The notes beneath the pieces were generated by a model. The model had not been told where the DNA came from. It searched no databases and saw nothing but the letters and a program-made list of their open reading frames with translations. A DNA stretch of 64,000 nucleotides from a phage: the sequence record PQ327946.1; one strand, written 5' to 3'. Shown one piece after another: positions 33,081-35,817 of the stretch; the first letter of the stretch is position 1, and the number at the start of each line of letters is the position of its first letter. The position numbers and the translations under genes are program-made.

Positions 33081-33695
33081 CTACTTAATGAAATTAATTT
33101 CTACCGGATGAACAACAGGTTGAGCAGTGATATATTGAGTAATTGCTTTCATGACTAGAGCTTCAGAACCAGGATTTTTCTCAACGAATTCACGTGCTCG
33201 GTTATGAGCTTCGAGTTCACTCAATAAACCGGAACGTTGGCATCCACGGTCTTGAGTACCCTGTTCAGATAAAAGGACTACTACATATTTTTCATCGTCG
33301 TAGGGCTTAGCCAGTTGAGCAAATGTTCCTTTACTTCCAAAAGGAGAGTTATGTCGCCACATCACGCCGTGAGGAGTTTCAACCTTCGTATATTCGTGCG
33401 GGCCATTTTTCTTAGTTTCTTGATGTGGAACTTCATAGACCTTAGGGTTAGGACATTCAATAAAATGCTCATCTAAATCGGTCGAGAATATTAAAGTAAA
33501 ACAATTACTGAATTTACCAACACCCGCCTGATAAATTTTACCTTCAGAAGTTCTAATTTCACAAACCGAGCCGGCATCAGTAACTTCTAAAACTTCAAAA
33601 GGCTCAATAAGGTCATATGAGAACATGTTTTTAAGGCGTGGAGTAATATCCCCATTTTTAAAATTCATTTTATAAAAAGTATTAACTTTAAACAT
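33081..33695 (-). CDS. hypothetical protein (about 204 aa, start trimmed to MFKVNTFYK)
   Basis: Track ORF 33081..33725 overlaps an upstream UUCG hairpin; the internal Met has a GAGGAAA Shine-Dalgarno. Confidence 0.4.
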   Translation of the reverse strand: MFKVNTFYKMNFKNGDITPRLKNMFSYDLIEPFEVLEVTDAGSVCEIRTSEGKIYQAGVGKFSNCFTLIFSTDLDEHFIECPNPKVYEVPHQETKKNGPHEYTKVETPHGVMWRHNSPFGSKGTFAQLAKPYDDEKYVVVLLSEQGTQDRGCQRSGLLSELEAHNRAREFVEKNPGSEALVMKAITQYITAQPVVHPVEINFIK

Positions 33696-33730
33696 AATTT
33701 CCTCAGTGGGAGCCGAAGCTCCCAATTAAT

Positions 33731-34096
33731 TTAGATATCAAATTCGTTAAGAACTACATCAAAGATTGCTTCGAGATGTTCAGGTTTAGCTCGGTTACTC
33801 AGGATATGACGAATCCAAGTTTTAACCAGAAGTTTACGATTAACACCATTCCAGCAAGGATGAGTACCTAAATCACGCTGACGGAAATCATCATCTAATG
33901 CAATTTTAAAATTTGAACCTTCCATCGTGATTGAAACCGTGATACCATTTTCAAATCGCATATAAACGTAATTAGGAGTCATGCACTGTTCGATTTCACA
34001 AACTGTACCATTTTCGTGTTTCCATAAGCAAATAACTTCAGAAGAACCAGCAATACCGTTAGAAACATATTTACGTTCGAAGTTGGTGTAGTTCAT
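33731..34096 (-). CDS. hypothetical protein (121 aa)
   Basis: ORF preceded by early-promoter-like motif. Confidence 0.4.
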   Translation of the reverse strand: MNYTNFERKYVSNGIAGSSEVICLWKHENGTVCEIEQCMTPNYVYMRFENGITVSITMEGSNFKIALDDDFRQRDLGTHPCWNGVNRKLLVKTWIRHILSNRAKPEHLEAIFDVVLNEFDI

Positions 34097-34170: not shown

Positions 34171-34539
34171 TTATGCAACTTTAATCCAATTGTCTAAATT
34201 TAAAACACCTTTGGCTTTCATTTTTTCGATCAGGTTATCTGCTGTAATGCGTCCATTTTGATACCATGTAACATCTTCAGAGTAACCAGTTTCTTCGTCA
34301 ACATATGTTTCTGAACGAATTTTACCGGTAATAATAGTTTTTAATTCGTATGTGTCACCTGTGAAAAAGTTTGCTAACACAATTTTCCAAGAGAAATCAT
34401 CTGAAGGACCTTCAGGGGTCATACAACCTACGAACTCAAATTGCTCTTTGTATAACATCCACTGGAATTCTTTAATTTCGATAGCTTTATAACCGTCTTG
34501 GTCTTTACATTTGATGTATGAGTTCAGATTGATTTTCAT
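34171..34539 (-). CDS. hypothetical protein (122 aa)
   Basis: ORF preceded by early-promoter-like motif. Confidence 0.4.
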   Translation of the reverse strand: MKINLNSYIKCKDQDGYKAIEIKEFQWMLYKEQFEFVGCMTPEGPSDDFSWKIVLANFFTGDTYELKTIITGKIRSETYVDEETGYSEDVTWYQNGRITADNLIEKMKAKGVLNLDNWIKVA

Positions 34540-34580: not shown

Positions 34581-34609
34581 ATAGTAACACATCCTACAGG
34601 AGAGTAAAC
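34581..34609 (-). promoter_or_regulatory. early promoter
   Basis: GTTTAC-N17/18-TACTAT upstream of ORF 34171..34539. Confidence 0.5.
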
Positions 34610-34639
34610 ATCTTTTTTAAACTTTTTCTGCCCTAAACG

Positions 34640-34664
34640 CACAAAAGGGAGACCGAAGTCTCCC
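34640..34664 (-). terminator. terminator after the 59-aa basic ORF
   Basis: GGGAGAC-UUCG-GUCUCCC followed by UUUUG on the minus strand. Confidence 0.65.
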
Positions 34665-34669
34665 TAAAA

Positions 34670-34849
34670 TTATGCAACAACCTTTCCAAAACGAGAAGCA
34701 TCATCTCGAAGAACTGCACGTGCTCTGCGCATGATCTTCTCAACTGTTTGATTAATACGAGAGTTCGACCCACGCTTGTATCCAGCGCGTTTAGAGGTAC
34801 CATCAACTTTCTTTTCAACTGCTTTCTTTGCTTTAGCTTGTTTTGCCAT
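34670..34849 (-). CDS. small lysine-rich basic protein (59 aa), not in ORF track
   Basis: Translation MAKQAKAKKAVEKKVDGTSKRAGYKRGSNSRINQTVEKIMRRARAVLRDDASRFGKVVA; AAAGAG upstream of ATG; stop followed at once by a GGGAGAC-UUCG-GUCUCCC terminator. Confidence 0.45.
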   Translation of the reverse strand: MAKQAKAKKAVEKKVDGTSKRAGYKRGSNSRINQTVEKIMRRARAVLRDDASRFGKVVA

Positions 34850-35111
34850 TATAAATTCTCTTTAAATGAAAATGCAGGACTTATTGACATTGCCTGCTCA
34901 AGCCCTCAAGGGGAACATAGGTTTTGGATATTTAACGACAGGATAACCATAAACCCGTCATCATACCTACCACGACTTACACAGATAACACTTTTCTGAC
35001 GCATGATAGTAACATTCAAGAGGTACACCGTAAAATTGTCGGGGCGGTACTTCTAAAACATACCGATTCGCAAATCGATAATCAGACAATTCGACGGCTC
35101 CTCGATTTAAC

Positions 35112-35360
35112 TTACTTCAGGGTAATAACAAAATGACGAACTGCTTTGCGTGCTGCAGAAGCCAGAGGCTTAGCATATTTCAATTCATCTTTAGCTTCCA
35201 GTTCAGAAGCCAGAGTAGCCTGAGCAGGATTCAGATGTTTGAAATATCGCAGGATTTCCAGTGCTTCGGCTTCAACATCAATTGACGCACCGTAGTTTTC
35301 GTGACCGTTATTCCATGCGTTTCGTTGCAGTTCAAGAGCGTGTTGTAATTGTTTAATCAT
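35112..35360 (-). CDS. rIII: rIII lysis inhibition accessory protein
   Basis: 82 aa; T4 rIII-like; late promoter upstream. Confidence 0.8.
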   Translation of the reverse strand: MIKQLQHALELQRNAWNNGHENYGASIDVEAEALEILRYFKHLNPAQATLASELEAKDELKYAKPLASAARKAVRHFVITLK

Positions 35361-35484: not shown

Positions 35485-35817
35485 TCACTTATAAAGACAC
35501 GGAATAGCTTTATAGTGGCATGTTACGAATTTCTGTTTAATTTCTTTAGGTTGTTTAAGTCCCAAAGCCACAAATGGATGTGGAACATTTCGAATTTGTC
35601 CAACTGGTAGTGGAGTCAAATCACCGACTTCAACAAAACCTTCAGGAACATCAGGACCTACAGAATGAACTACACATAGTTCAGGAACTTCACCTTGAAC
35701 ACGTTTACCAATCACAAGTCCTGATTCTGTAACTTCTTCATCACCTGCTTGAGCGGGTTCAGAAACCAGAATGACATATTCACCAACAGCACGAATTGGG
35801 AGTTGTACTTCAGACAT
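35485..35817 (-). CDS. 31: gp31 co-chaperonin (GroES-like)
   Basis: 110 aa; T4 gp31-like; MotA-box middle promoter upstream. Confidence 0.85.

What the first reader, a model, noticed from the sequence alone, without database searches (positions are those of the whole stretch)
34670..34849. Unlisted 59-aa lysine-rich basic ORF with its own terminator
In a different frame from the 61-aa track ORF (34633..34818) there is a 59-codon ORF encoding MAKQAKAKKAVEKKVDGTSKRAGYKRGSNSRINQTVEKIMRRARAVLRDDASRFGKVVA. It has an SD-like AAAGAG upstream and ends immediately before a strong GGGAGAC-UUCG-GUCUCCC hairpin with a U-tract, whereas the track ORF reads through that hairpin. The composition suggests a nucleic-acid-binding protein.
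Basis: seen in the sequence. Interest (0 to 1): 0.4.

Follow-up and report, generated by a model that had tools for sequence, protein, structure and literature searches.

The report
Phage T4 gene 30.9 orthologue
The 59-codon reading frame is a real gene, the counterpart of the long-annotated but still uncharacterised early gene 30.9 of phage T4, so the finding is correct but not new.

Summary
ORF 34670-34849 (- strand), its AAAGAG Shine-Dalgarno-like site and the GGGAGAC-UUCG-GUCUCCC hairpin 4 nt after the stop codon are all present. The window is a T4-like phage (Mosigvirus, 99% to HX01/JS09).

The ORF is the orthologue of T4 gene 30.9. It is 58 aa in T4 RefSeq, belongs to phrog_1427 (unknown function), and is annotated in relatives with the same terminator. 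It was probably "unlisted" because it falls one codon short of a 60-aa ORF cutoff.

- **Coding frame:** across 36 relatives pN/pS is 0.42 in this frame against 1.26 and 1.36 in the others. The rival 61-aa frame carries stop codons in 27 of 35 relatives and scores badly on codon usage.
- **Terminator:** it recurs in 35 of 36 relatives with compensatory stem changes.
- **Function:** unknown. The protein is 6.6 kDa, pI 11.4, net charge +13, with an invariant SKRAxYKR core motif and an amphipathic helix. It has no Pfam, NCBIfam, PDB or fold match. In T4 it is transcribed early and is dispensable in a knockdown screen. Nucleic-acid binding is plausible but untested.
- **By-catch:** a conserved candidate pseudoknot lies in the rIII-30.9 spacer (34920-34959). 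A ~140-nt structured RNA occupies the same spacer in about 400 related phages. Neither is in Rfam.

The parts
34670..34849 (-). Protein-coding gene, orthologue of T4 gene 30.9 (59 aa plus stop codon)
   Evidence: ORF and translation. phrog_1427 E = 2.4e-31. Annotated as similar to T4 gp30.9 in PhAPEC2, and as 30.9 in T4 itself. pN/pS is 0.42 in this frame against 1.26 and 1.36 in the other two. Codon-position entropy is 0.49/0.39/0.92. Codon-usage score is +0.445 bits per codon, within the range of real genes in the window.
34858..34863 (-). Shine-Dalgarno-like purine tract AAAGAG, 8 nt upstream of the ATG
   Evidence: Sequence. Relatives carry AAGAG or GGAAGA at the same position.
34646..34665 (-). 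Intrinsic-terminator hairpin AGGGAGAC-UUCG-GUCUCCCU
   Evidence: Fold and z-score. A perfect 8-10 bp GC-rich hairpin lies 3-11 nt after the stop codon in 35 of 36 relatives. There are 20 distinct hairpin sequences, and the stems differ by compensatory changes. The equivalent hairpin is annotated as a terminator in NC_024794.
34635..34645 (-). Interrupted U-tract UUUGUGCGUUU after the hairpin
   Evidence: Sequence. It is weaker than in relatives, most of which have 7-8 U in the first 9 nt.
34581..34609 (-). T4-early-type promoter of the next unit (gene 30.8): GTTTAC-N17-TACTAT. Together with the terminator it forms a PeSL-type composite.
   Evidence: Pattern present in the window and in 23 of 36 sequences overall, 41-60 nt after the stop codon. 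It fits the PST/T4 PeSL consensus TTTACW-N17-TAYWAT quoted in PMC4122927. Promoter activity was not tested.
34920..34959 (-). Candidate H-type pseudoknot in the rIII-30.9 spacer. P1 pairs 34954-34959 with 34937-34942. P2 pairs 34945-34948 with 34920-34923. Loop 3 is the conserved GUUAAAUAUCCAA.
   Evidence: Alignment A3 of 31 relatives. 81.9% of cells are paired against 37-57% when partners are slid, and the covariation score is 0.371 against at most 0.127. Pairs 13-35, 14-34 and 24-53 switch on both sides and are never broken. RNAalifold recovers the P1 core unaided. Own-versus-cross helix lengths are 5.3 vs 3.7 for P1 and 5.8 vs 4.6 for P2. There is a single copy in the window and no Rfam match. 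P2 is only 4-5 bp in the window itself.
34903..34912 (-). Small hairpin CCC-UUGA-GGG in the leader (low confidence)
   Evidence: Variants seen by eye in the spacer alignment: CCCUUCGAGGG, CCCCUUAGGGG, GCCUUCGAGGC. Not formally tested.
34874..34897 (-). Hairpin GCAGG-N14-CCUGC just upstream of the ribosome-binding site (low confidence)
   Evidence: Present in the centroid fold. L027 and L036 have CUGG/CCAG at the same place. Not formally tested.
35061..35080 (-). AU-rich hairpin UAUCGAUU-UGCG-AAUCGGUA about 30 nt after the rIII stop codon, followed by GUUUUA
   Evidence: Sequence. T4-type relatives have UAAUGAUU-UGCG-AAUCAUUA, with two compensated positions. Any terminator or processing role is inferred only.

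Best explanation
The 59-codon ORF is a genuine protein-coding gene and the orthologue of bacteriophage T4 early gene 30.9.

Shown:
- This frame is the one under purifying selection.
- The M-A/S-K start and the purine-rich ribosome-binding site are conserved.
- The gene sits in the conserved order gp31 - rIII - structured spacer - 30.9.
- It is followed within a few nucleotides by a conserved intrinsic terminator. In most relatives an early-type promoter for the next genes follows, giving a PeSL-type terminator/promoter composite.

Inferred from published T4 data:
- The gene is transcribed early. This probably happens largely by read-through from the promoters upstream of rIII.
- It is dispensable under laboratory conditions.

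Product: a 6.6-kDa protein with pI 11.4 and net charge +13. It has a variable Lys/Ala-rich N-terminus, a core motif S-K-R-A-x-Y-K-R (invariant apart from x, which is Gly in over 90%) followed by x-S-N-x-R, and a predicted amphipathic helix (residues 30-52).

Most likely mode of action (inference only, about 0.55 in total): it binds a nucleic acid through the basic motif and helix. RNA (about 0.35) is somewhat more likely than DNA (about 0.2). On this reading it acts as a non-essential accessory factor of early infection. One concrete possibility is that it recognises the conserved structured RNA in its own upstream spacer.

The confidence given (0.85) refers to the gene identity and the expression architecture, not to the functional guess.
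For: Identity:
- phrog_1427 E = 2.4e-31.
- 90% identity to the T4-type protein.
- Annotated as 30.9 in T4 RefSeq at 130364-130540, 58 aa, and as gp30.9-like with an adjacent terminator in PhAPEC2.
- tblastn finds it in 1007 phage records of Tevenvirinae.

Coding:
- pN/pS is 0.42 against 1.26 and 1.36.
- Third-position entropy is twice that of positions 1 and 2.
- Codon-usage score is +0.445 against -0.39 for the rival frame.
- The rival frame is interrupted in 27 of 35 relatives.
- Upstream extensions are not conserved.

Terminator.
Synteny.
PeSL fit.

Expression and dispensability in T4:
- The transcript is classed 'early' in PMC9697503 Table S2.
- The CRISPRi-ART knockdown is scored 'Not Fit', score 0.04, p = 0.26, in the PMC11879866 supplement.

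Protein features:
- pI 11.35 and net +13. The helix hydrophobic moment is 1.6 against 0.65 +/- 0.32 for shuffles.
- AlphaFold2 predicts a helix at 30-52 with pLDDT 81-87.
- Invariant columns are listed.
Against: - No direct evidence of the protein. It was not detected in the T4 time-resolved proteome (Class_P = NA). A 59-aa protein with 18 Lys/Arg would, however, give few usable tryptic peptides.
- Nothing ties it to nucleic-acid binding beyond charge. There is no Pfam, NCBIfam or PADLOC family and no fold match in PDB or BFVD. The only solved-structure hit is a non-significant one (E = 0.18).
- The structure model is of modest confidence (mean pLDDT 66).
- The window's U-tract is weaker than those of relatives.
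- Promoter assignments are pattern matches only. The promoter-like site in the spacer is not conserved.
Confidence: 0.85

Rival explanations
1. The 61-aa ORF in the +1 frame (34633-34818) is the real gene and the 59-aa frame is incidental.
For: It is slightly longer, and it is open in the window and its closest relatives.
Against: It has no family hit. pN/pS is 1.26 in that frame. It carries 1-7 stop codons in 27 of 35 relatives. Its codon-usage score of -0.39 is below every in-frame window of real genes. It uses a TTG start without a ribosome-binding site and runs through the conserved terminator hairpin.
Confidence: 0.01
2. The protein is a longer, N-terminally extended product, as in the UniProt entry for T4 (P17310, 97 aa, '11.1 kDa protein in Gp30-rIII intergenic region').
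For: In T4 and several relatives the frame stays open for 10-50 codons upstream of the conserved ATG.
Against: In this window 59 aa is the longest ORF from any ATG/GTG/TTG start in this frame, and in the near-identical locus L004 the frame is open for only 4 codons upstream of the ATG. The extensions differ completely in length and sequence between relatives, whereas every sequence aligns from M-A/S-K onward. T4 RefSeq itself annotates the 58-aa form. The extension region holds conserved RNA structure, not conserved codons.
Confidence: 0.02
3. gp30.9 is translated but acts by binding a host or phage protein (host take-over or counter-defence factor) rather than a nucleic acid. The amphipathic helix would be the interaction surface.
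For: It is small, early and dispensable in the laboratory, like many T4 take-over and anti-defence proteins. It has a strongly amphipathic helix with a heptad-like hydrophobic stripe. Its alleles are distributed as a mosaic relative to the neighbouring genes.
Against: No similarity to any known inhibitor or defence-related family. A net charge of +13 in 59 residues is more typical of nucleic-acid binders. There is no direct test either way.
Confidence: 0.3
4. The region is not translated. It is only the 3' untranslated part of the rIII transcript, and the conservation reflects RNA function.
For: The protein was not detected in the T4 proteome. The upstream spacer is clearly structured RNA.
Against: The substitution pattern is that of a protein: excess third-position variation, pN/pS of 0.42, and the reading frame kept open in all 36 sequences despite up to 50% amino-acid divergence. 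The start codon and ribosome-binding site are conserved.
Confidence: 0.03

Closest known systems
Bacteriophage T4 gene 30.9 (NP_049823.1; UniProt P17310; PHROG 1427)
   Same: Same family (E = 2.4e-31), about 90% identical, and the same length. It occupies the same position between rIII and 30.8 and is followed by the same kind of terminator.
   Different: The C-terminus is ...GKVVA instead of ...GKQKA, and there is one extra residue (Asp16). The terminator stem is GGGAGAC instead of GGACUCC. The window's spacer is 265 nt against 248 nt in the T4-type locus L005 (which is missing a ~45-nt block that the window has).
PeSL (promoter-early stem-loop) terminator/promoter composites of T4-like phages (Arbiol 2010; Comeau 2014, PMC4122927)
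   Same: A stem-loop terminator is followed by an early promoter that fits TTTACW-N17-TAYWAT. It sits at the edge of a plastic block, since genes 30.8 and 30.7 vary or are absent in relatives.
   Different: Only the downstream side of 30.9 shows a convincing PeSL. The upstream promoter-like site is not conserved. No recombination event was demonstrated here beyond discordant allele identities.
Autogenously regulated small basic RNA-binding proteins with pseudoknotted leaders (T4 gp32 mRNA pseudoknot; E. coli ribosomal protein S15 leader)
   Same: A very basic small protein is encoded downstream of a conserved H-type pseudoknot in its own upstream RNA. This is a functional analogy only.
   Different: There is no sequence or fold relation to gp32 or to ribosomal proteins. 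The pseudoknot matches no Rfam family. Its distance to the start codon varies from 77 to 353 nt among relatives, which argues against simple occlusion of the ribosome-binding site. No binding was tested.
Arginine-rich-motif peptides (lambda N, HIV Tat/Rev type)
   Same: A short basic segment plus a helix, with no globular fold.
   Different: This is a resemblance from general knowledge only. There is no homology, no known RNA target, and it was not tested.

Membership tests
T4 gp30.9 family (PHROG 1427) | Significant sequence match to the family profile and to the T4 protein | tested here: met
   phrog_1427 E = 2.4e-31 over residues 1-57. Identity to homologues including T4 P0005 is 86-98%.
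T4 gp30.9 family (PHROG 1427) | Conserved genomic position: downstream of gp31 and rIII, same strand | tested here: met
   gp31 and rIII lie upstream in 34 of 35 related loci and in the window.
T4 gp30.9 family (PHROG 1427) | Short product (about 53-60 aa) starting at the conserved M-A/S-K | tested here: met
   59 aa. In the near-identical locus L004 the frame is open for only 4 codons upstream of the ATG, and the extensions seen elsewhere are not conserved.
T4 gp30.9 family (PHROG 1427) | Early transcription during infection | not testable with these tools
   The T4 transcript is classed 'early' in PMC9697503 Table S2. There are no expression data for this phage.
Rho-independent (intrinsic) terminator | GC-rich stem-loop immediately downstream of the gene | tested here: met
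   8-bp stem with 6 G-C pairs, UUCG loop, -14.1 kcal/mol. Conserved with compensatory changes in 35 of 36 relatives.
Rho-independent (intrinsic) terminator | Uninterrupted U-tract directly after the stem | tested here: inconclusive
   The window has UUUUGUGCGUUU: 4 U (one shared with the stem), then an interruption. The simple scan did not list it. Relatives have 7-8 U in 9 nt.
Rho-independent (intrinsic) terminator | Transcripts actually end there | not testable with these tools
   Needs 3'-end mapping.
PeSL terminator/promoter composite | Stem-loop followed by an early promoter fitting TTTACW-N17-TAYWAT | tested here: met
   GTTTACT ... TACTAT at 34581-34609, 60 nt after the stop codon. The pattern is found in 23 of 36 sequences including the window. 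The consensus is taken from PMC4122927.
Known nucleic-acid-binding or ribosomal protein families (Pfam, NCBIfam) | Profile match above the curated threshold | tested here: not met
   Best Pfam hits have E = 0.14-0.15, far below the cutoffs. The best NCBIfam hit scores 13.9 bits against a cutoff of 153.
SlmA / TetR-family nucleoid occlusion factor | TetR-type helix-turn-helix domain and a full-length match | tested here: not met
   Only a 25-residue helix (RINQ..E.I....R.VLR....R.G) aligns to SlmA 122-146, at E = 0.18. The RINQ part is not conserved in distant family members.
Anti-phage defence or counter-defence protein families (PADLOC) | Profile match | tested here: not met
   No hits at E <= 1.
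H-type RNA pseudoknot (for the spacer element 34920-34959) | Two helices in crossing topology, each kept by compensatory substitutions | tested here: met
   three P1 pairs and four P2 pairs change on both sides, and 81.9% of cells are paired against at most 56.6% when slid. Caveat: the structure was derived by eye from the same sequences. RNAalifold independently gives only the P1 core.
Any Rfam family (for the spacer element and for the 140-nt RNA of relatives) | Covariance-model match | tested here: not met
   No match over these elements at E <= 1 to 5. The only hits are to the terminator hairpin.

The most novel reading that the evidence does not exclude
The rIII-30.9 spacer encodes undescribed cis-acting RNA, and gp30.9 is its RNA-binding partner. 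The RNA consists of an H-type pseudoknot present in the window and in about 780 phage genomes, and in about 400 related genomes also a 140-nt multi-helix RNA with a kissing-loop interaction. gp30.9 is a +13-charged 59-aa protein with an Arg/Lys-rich motif and one helix. Together they would form an autogenous translational or stability control loop of the gp32 or ribosomal-protein type.
Probability: 0.1. Interest if true: 0.55.

Novelty: already known. Interest (0 to 1): 0.2.

Why it matters
As a gene call it matters little. The ORF has been annotated in T4 since the genome was assembled, and it is annotated in the closest relatives of this window. The check is still useful for three reasons:

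- It shows that a 60-aa ORF cutoff hides a real, widely conserved gene and promotes a spurious overlapping one.
- It shows that the 97-aa UniProt form of the T4 protein is an over-extension.
- It documents that gp30.9 remains one of the conserved Tevenvirinae early proteins with no assigned function.

The more interesting material is the conserved structured RNA in the spacer upstream of the gene, which appears to be undescribed. If it is linked to gp30.9, it would give a testable entry point to the protein's function.

Tried and rejected
- **Alternative 61-aa frame:** rejected.
- **Long 97-aa form:** rejected.
- **Family and fold searches for function:** nothing usable.
  - Pfam, NCBIfam and PADLOC gave nothing.
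  - The PDB sequence profile gave only the SlmA helix at E = 0.18, judged a chance match.
  - Foldseek against PDB and BFVD gave no matches.
  - An HMM search of 1.8 billion representatives found 18 hits. Apart from fragments and one spurious low-complexity 617-aa sequence, they are short basic proteins sharing the same core motif.
- **'30.9 is more conserved than its neighbours':** an early impression, withdrawn after measurement. Mean identity is 71% against 79% for rIII and 74% for gp31.
- **Early promoter inside the spacer:** TTTACG-N17-TACTAT at 35006-35034 is present in the window but in only 3 of 36 relatives, so it is not relied on.
- **The conserved TATGATG as a -10 element or as the start of a leader peptide:** rejected. 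No conserved -35 element is present, and the reading frame to the downstream TAA is not kept in relatives (reading).
- **Whole-leader thermodynamic stability:** not different from shuffles (z = 0.2).
- **The 140-nt RNA of relatives as a relative of T4 rnaC or rnaD, or as a second copy in the window:** no match.
- **Literature:** no functional study of gp30.9 was found in the searchable library. Only a citation to Driukas and Nivinskas 2003 (Biologija) on expression of rIII and 30.9 turned up, and that paper is not held.

Full report
**What the window is.** The genes around the finding lie on the - strand. They translate to the T4 co-chaperonin gp31 (35485-35817), the lysis-inhibition protein rIII (35112-35360), and the homologues of T4 30.8 (34171-34539) and 30.7 (33731-34096). 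A 501-nt query around the finding matches 741 phage records. The best are the Mosigvirus phages HX01 and JS09 at 99%.

**The observation.**
- The ORF runs from ATG at 34849 to TAA at 34670-34672 and gives the quoted 59-aa protein.
- AAAGAG lies at 34858-34863, 8 nt before the ATG.
- Four nucleotides after the stop codon comes AGGGAGAC-UUCG-GUCUCCCU (34646-34665). The centroid hairpin is -14.1 kcal/mol, and the 61-nt context has z = -3.07 against shuffles.
- An interrupted U-tract, UUUGUGCGUUU, follows. Because of the interruption the simple consensus scan did not list it.
- The 61-aa ORF (34633-34818) is in the +1 frame and reads through the hairpin.

**Identity.** The 59-aa protein hits phrog_1427 (unknown function) at E = 2.4e-31, and the 61-aa protein hits nothing. 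In PhAPEC2 the same ORF is annotated 'similar to gp30.9 ... from Enterobacteria phage T4', with an ARNold-predicted terminator right after it. HX01 also annotates it. T4 RefSeq and GenBank annotate gene 30.9 at 130364-130540, 58 aa, between rIII and 30.8. The most likely reason is that it has 59 codons while the mechanical ORF list defaults to 60.

**Which frame codes.** I fetched 40 related loci, which with the window give 36 distinct nucleotide sequences, and built a codon alignment.
- Mean column entropy is 0.49, 0.39 and 0.92 for codon positions 1, 2 and 3.
- Pooled pairwise pN/pS is 0.42 in the 59-aa frame, against 1.26 and 1.36 in the other two forward frames.
- The +1 frame of the 61-aa ORF carries stop codons in 27 of the 35 relatives.
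- A codon-usage log-odds score, trained on the 38 ORFs of at least 200 aa in the window, gives +0.445 bits per codon for the 59-aa frame. Real genes average 0.369 (sd 0.150), and no off-frame window reaches +0.445. The 61-aa frame scores -0.39, below every in-frame window.
- All homologues align from M-A/S-K onward. The N-terminal extensions possible in some genomes, including the 97-aa UniProt form of T4 (P17310), differ completely in length and sequence. In the near-identical locus L004 the frame is open for only 4 codons upstream of the ATG.

**Terminator and transcription unit.** A perfect 8-10 bp GC-rich hairpin lies 3-11 nt after the stop codon in 35 of 36 relatives, followed by a U-run.
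- There are 20 distinct hairpin sequences. The stems differ by compensatory changes: GGGAGAC/GUCUCCC, GGGACUCC/GGAGUCCC, GGGAACC/GGUUCCC and GGGGCUCC/GGAGCCCC.
- In 23 of 36 sequences, including the window (34581-34609), GTTTAC-N17/18-TAnnnT follows 41-60 nt after the stop codon. With the hairpin, this fits the PeSL terminator/promoter composites described for T4-like phages, whose PST/T4 consensus is TTTACW-N17-TAYWAT (PMC4122927).
- Upstream, a promoter-like TTTACG-N17-TACTAT exists in the window's spacer (35006-35034) but in only 3 of 36 relatives.
- I therefore infer that 30.9 is mostly read through from the promoters upstream of rIII. PMC9409239 states that rIII has early, middle and late promoters. 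On this view the hairpin terminates that unit rather than a private 30.9 transcript.
- Gene order gp31 - rIII - spacer - 30.9 holds in 34 of 35 related loci.

**What is known about the T4 gene.** The T4 multi-omics study classes the 30.9 transcript as 'early' and did not detect the protein (PMC9697503 Table S2). A protein this small and this rich in Lys/Arg would yield few usable tryptic peptides (my inference). The genome-wide dCas13d knockdown of T4 scores 30.9 as 'Not Fit' (score 0.04, p = 0.26), meaning no measurable fitness cost in the laboratory host, and lists its function as unknown (PMC11879866 supplement). The only dedicated study I could trace is Driukas and Nivinskas 2003 (Biologija), cited in PMC9409239. 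It is not in the library.

**The protein.**
- It is 6563 Da, pI 11.35, with 18 Lys/Arg against 5 Asp/Glu.
- Invariant or nearly invariant residues are S19 K20 R21 A22 (G23) Y24 K25 R26, S28 N29, R31 I32, R42 A43 R44, V46, F54 G55.
- Distant members keep SKRAGYKR-x-SN-x-R-[IV]-[ND] followed by a helix ending in R-x-A-R-K-A-[LI].
- AlphaFold2 gives mean pLDDT 66, with a confident helix at 30-52. That helix is strongly amphipathic, with a hydrophobic moment of 1.6 against 0.65 +/- 0.32 for shuffles.
- The family is small and confined to T4-like phages. It has 65 clusters at 90% identity, 18 representatives among 1.8 billion and 1007 phage records.
- There is no Pfam, NCBIfam or PADLOC match and no Foldseek match in PDB or BFVD.
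- The single solved-structure hit is a 25-residue helix of SlmA at E = 0.18, which I regard as chance.
- Mean identity to the window's protein is 71%, against 79% for rIII and 74% for gp31. The gene is therefore conserved about as well as its neighbours, not better.
- Allele identities are discordant. In L022-L024 and L030-L033, rIII is 88-94% identical but 30.9 only 61-66%. This suggests recombination within the spacer.

**Mechanism.** Function cannot be read from homology. The composition, the basic motif plus single amphipathic helix, and the lack of a globular fold favour binding to a polyanion. I put nucleic-acid binding at about 0.55 (RNA 0.35, DNA 0.2) and a purely protein-directed role at about 0.3. 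These are inferences, and nothing here tests them.

**By-catch in the spacer.** The rIII-30.9 spacer (265 nt here, 123-419 nt in relatives) is not junk.
- **Pseudoknot.** A 40-nt element at 34920-34959 (- strand) is conserved in 34 of 35 related loci and can form an H-type pseudoknot.
  - P1 is GACGGG/CCUGUC and P2 is GGUU/AACC. The loops are conserved: UU, AU and the A-rich GUUAAAUAUCCAA.
  - On a 31-sequence alignment, 81.9% of cells pair, against 37-57% when partners are slid. The covariation score is 0.371 against at most 0.127. Three pairs switch on both sides without ever breaking.
  - RNAalifold recovers the P1 core on its own. Helices are longer within a sequence than between sequences with different arms.
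  - G-U pairs place the structure on the gene's strand.
  - It occurs once in the window and once per genome in 777 phage records. It matches no Rfam family.
  - Caveats: I derived the structure by eye from these sequences, P2 is only 4-5 bp in the window, and the whole leader is not unusually stable.
- **140-nt RNA in relatives.** In 20 of the 36 distinct sequences, but not in the window or T4, the same spacer also carries a ~140-nt element.
  - RNAalifold predicts 45 pairs for it, 21 of which show compensatory changes, including a closing helix formed by its two ends.
  - A loop-loop pairing (CGAUGG/CCAUCG, which becomes CAAUGA/UCAUUG) covaries as well, from my reading.
  - It lies upstream of the pseudoknot in some phages and downstream of it in others.
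  - It is 95-99% identical across phages of different host genera and occurs once per genome in 404 records.
  - It has no Rfam match. It has no copy in the window, in the T4 rnaC/rnaD region or in the T4 rIII region.

**Verdict.** The gene is already known as T4 30.9. Its function is still unknown, and the nucleic-acid-binding idea remains an untested guess. The undescribed structured RNA next to it is the part that would repay further work.

Noticed in passing
window 34920-34959 (- strand): Conserved candidate H-type pseudoknot in the rIII-30.9 spacer. Both stems show compensatory changes and the A-rich loop is conserved. It occurs once per genome in 777 phage records and is not in Rfam.
   Followed up: yes
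L009 1245-1393, L039 1163-1311, L014 1266-1414 and 17 other related loci; absent from the window and from T4: A ~140-nt multi-helix structured RNA in the same spacer. It has 45 predicted pairs, 21 with compensatory changes, plus a covarying loop-loop contact. It is 95-99% identical across phages of Klebsiella, Escherichia, Enterobacter and Citrobacter (404 records). It lies on either side of the pseudoknot in different phages. There is no Rfam match and no relation to T4 rnaC or rnaD.
   Followed up: partly
T4 130364-130540 (L003 3365-3541) versus UniProt P17310: UniProt lists the T4 protein as a 97-aa '11.1 kDa protein', while RefSeq gives 58 aa. The extension is not conserved, and in the near-identical locus L004 the frame is open for only 4 codons upstream of the ATG, so the long form is an over-extension that reads across the pseudoknot region.
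   Followed up: yes
gp30.9 residues 31-55 (window about 34685-34759): A 25-residue stretch, RINQTVEKIMRRARAVLRDDASRFG, is 12/25 identical to a helix of the E. coli nucleoid occlusion factor SlmA (residues 122-146). The profile E-value is 0.18. It is probably chance, because the RINQ part is not kept in distant family members.
   Followed up: partly
related loci L022-L024, L030-L033 versus the window: Discordant identities. rIII is 88-94% identical to the window's protein but 30.9 only 61-66%, and the reverse holds in L018 and L019 (30.9 at 92%, rIII at 68%). This suggests recombination breakpoints inside the structured spacer.
   Followed up: partly
window 35098-35103 and 34967-35089 (- strand): GAGGAG (a RegB-type GGAG motif, and also Shine-Dalgarno-like) lies directly after the rIII stop codon. 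A TTG-started 40-aa ORF begins 8 nt later. The ORF is closed after 3 codons in T4-type relatives, so it is not a conserved gene. The GGAG itself is conserved in the T4/Mosigvirus group.
   Followed up: partly
window 35061-35080 (- strand): AU-rich hairpin UAUCGAUU-UGCG-AAUCGGUA followed by GUUUUA, about 30 nt after rIII. Two positions are compensated in T4-type relatives. It could be a weak terminator or a processing site between rIII and 30.9.
   Followed up: no
window 33701-33724 (both strands): Terminator-like hairpin TGGGAGCCGAAGCTCCCA at the junction between the 30.7 homologue and the next ORF (33081-33725). The scan reported it on both strands.
   Followed up: no
protein P0052 (75 aa, labelled Shigella flexneri): A database entry that follows gp30.9 for 46 residues and then switches into the +1 frame (...FFEMMLLVL...). 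It looks like a frameshift or assembly error in a phage sequence filed under a bacterial name.
   Followed up: no
L001 (HX01 RefSeq) 2569-2947: The HX01 RefSeq record carries several 20-26-aa 'hypothetical protein' CDSs overlapping 30.9 and its spacer on both strands. These look like over-annotation.
   Followed up: no
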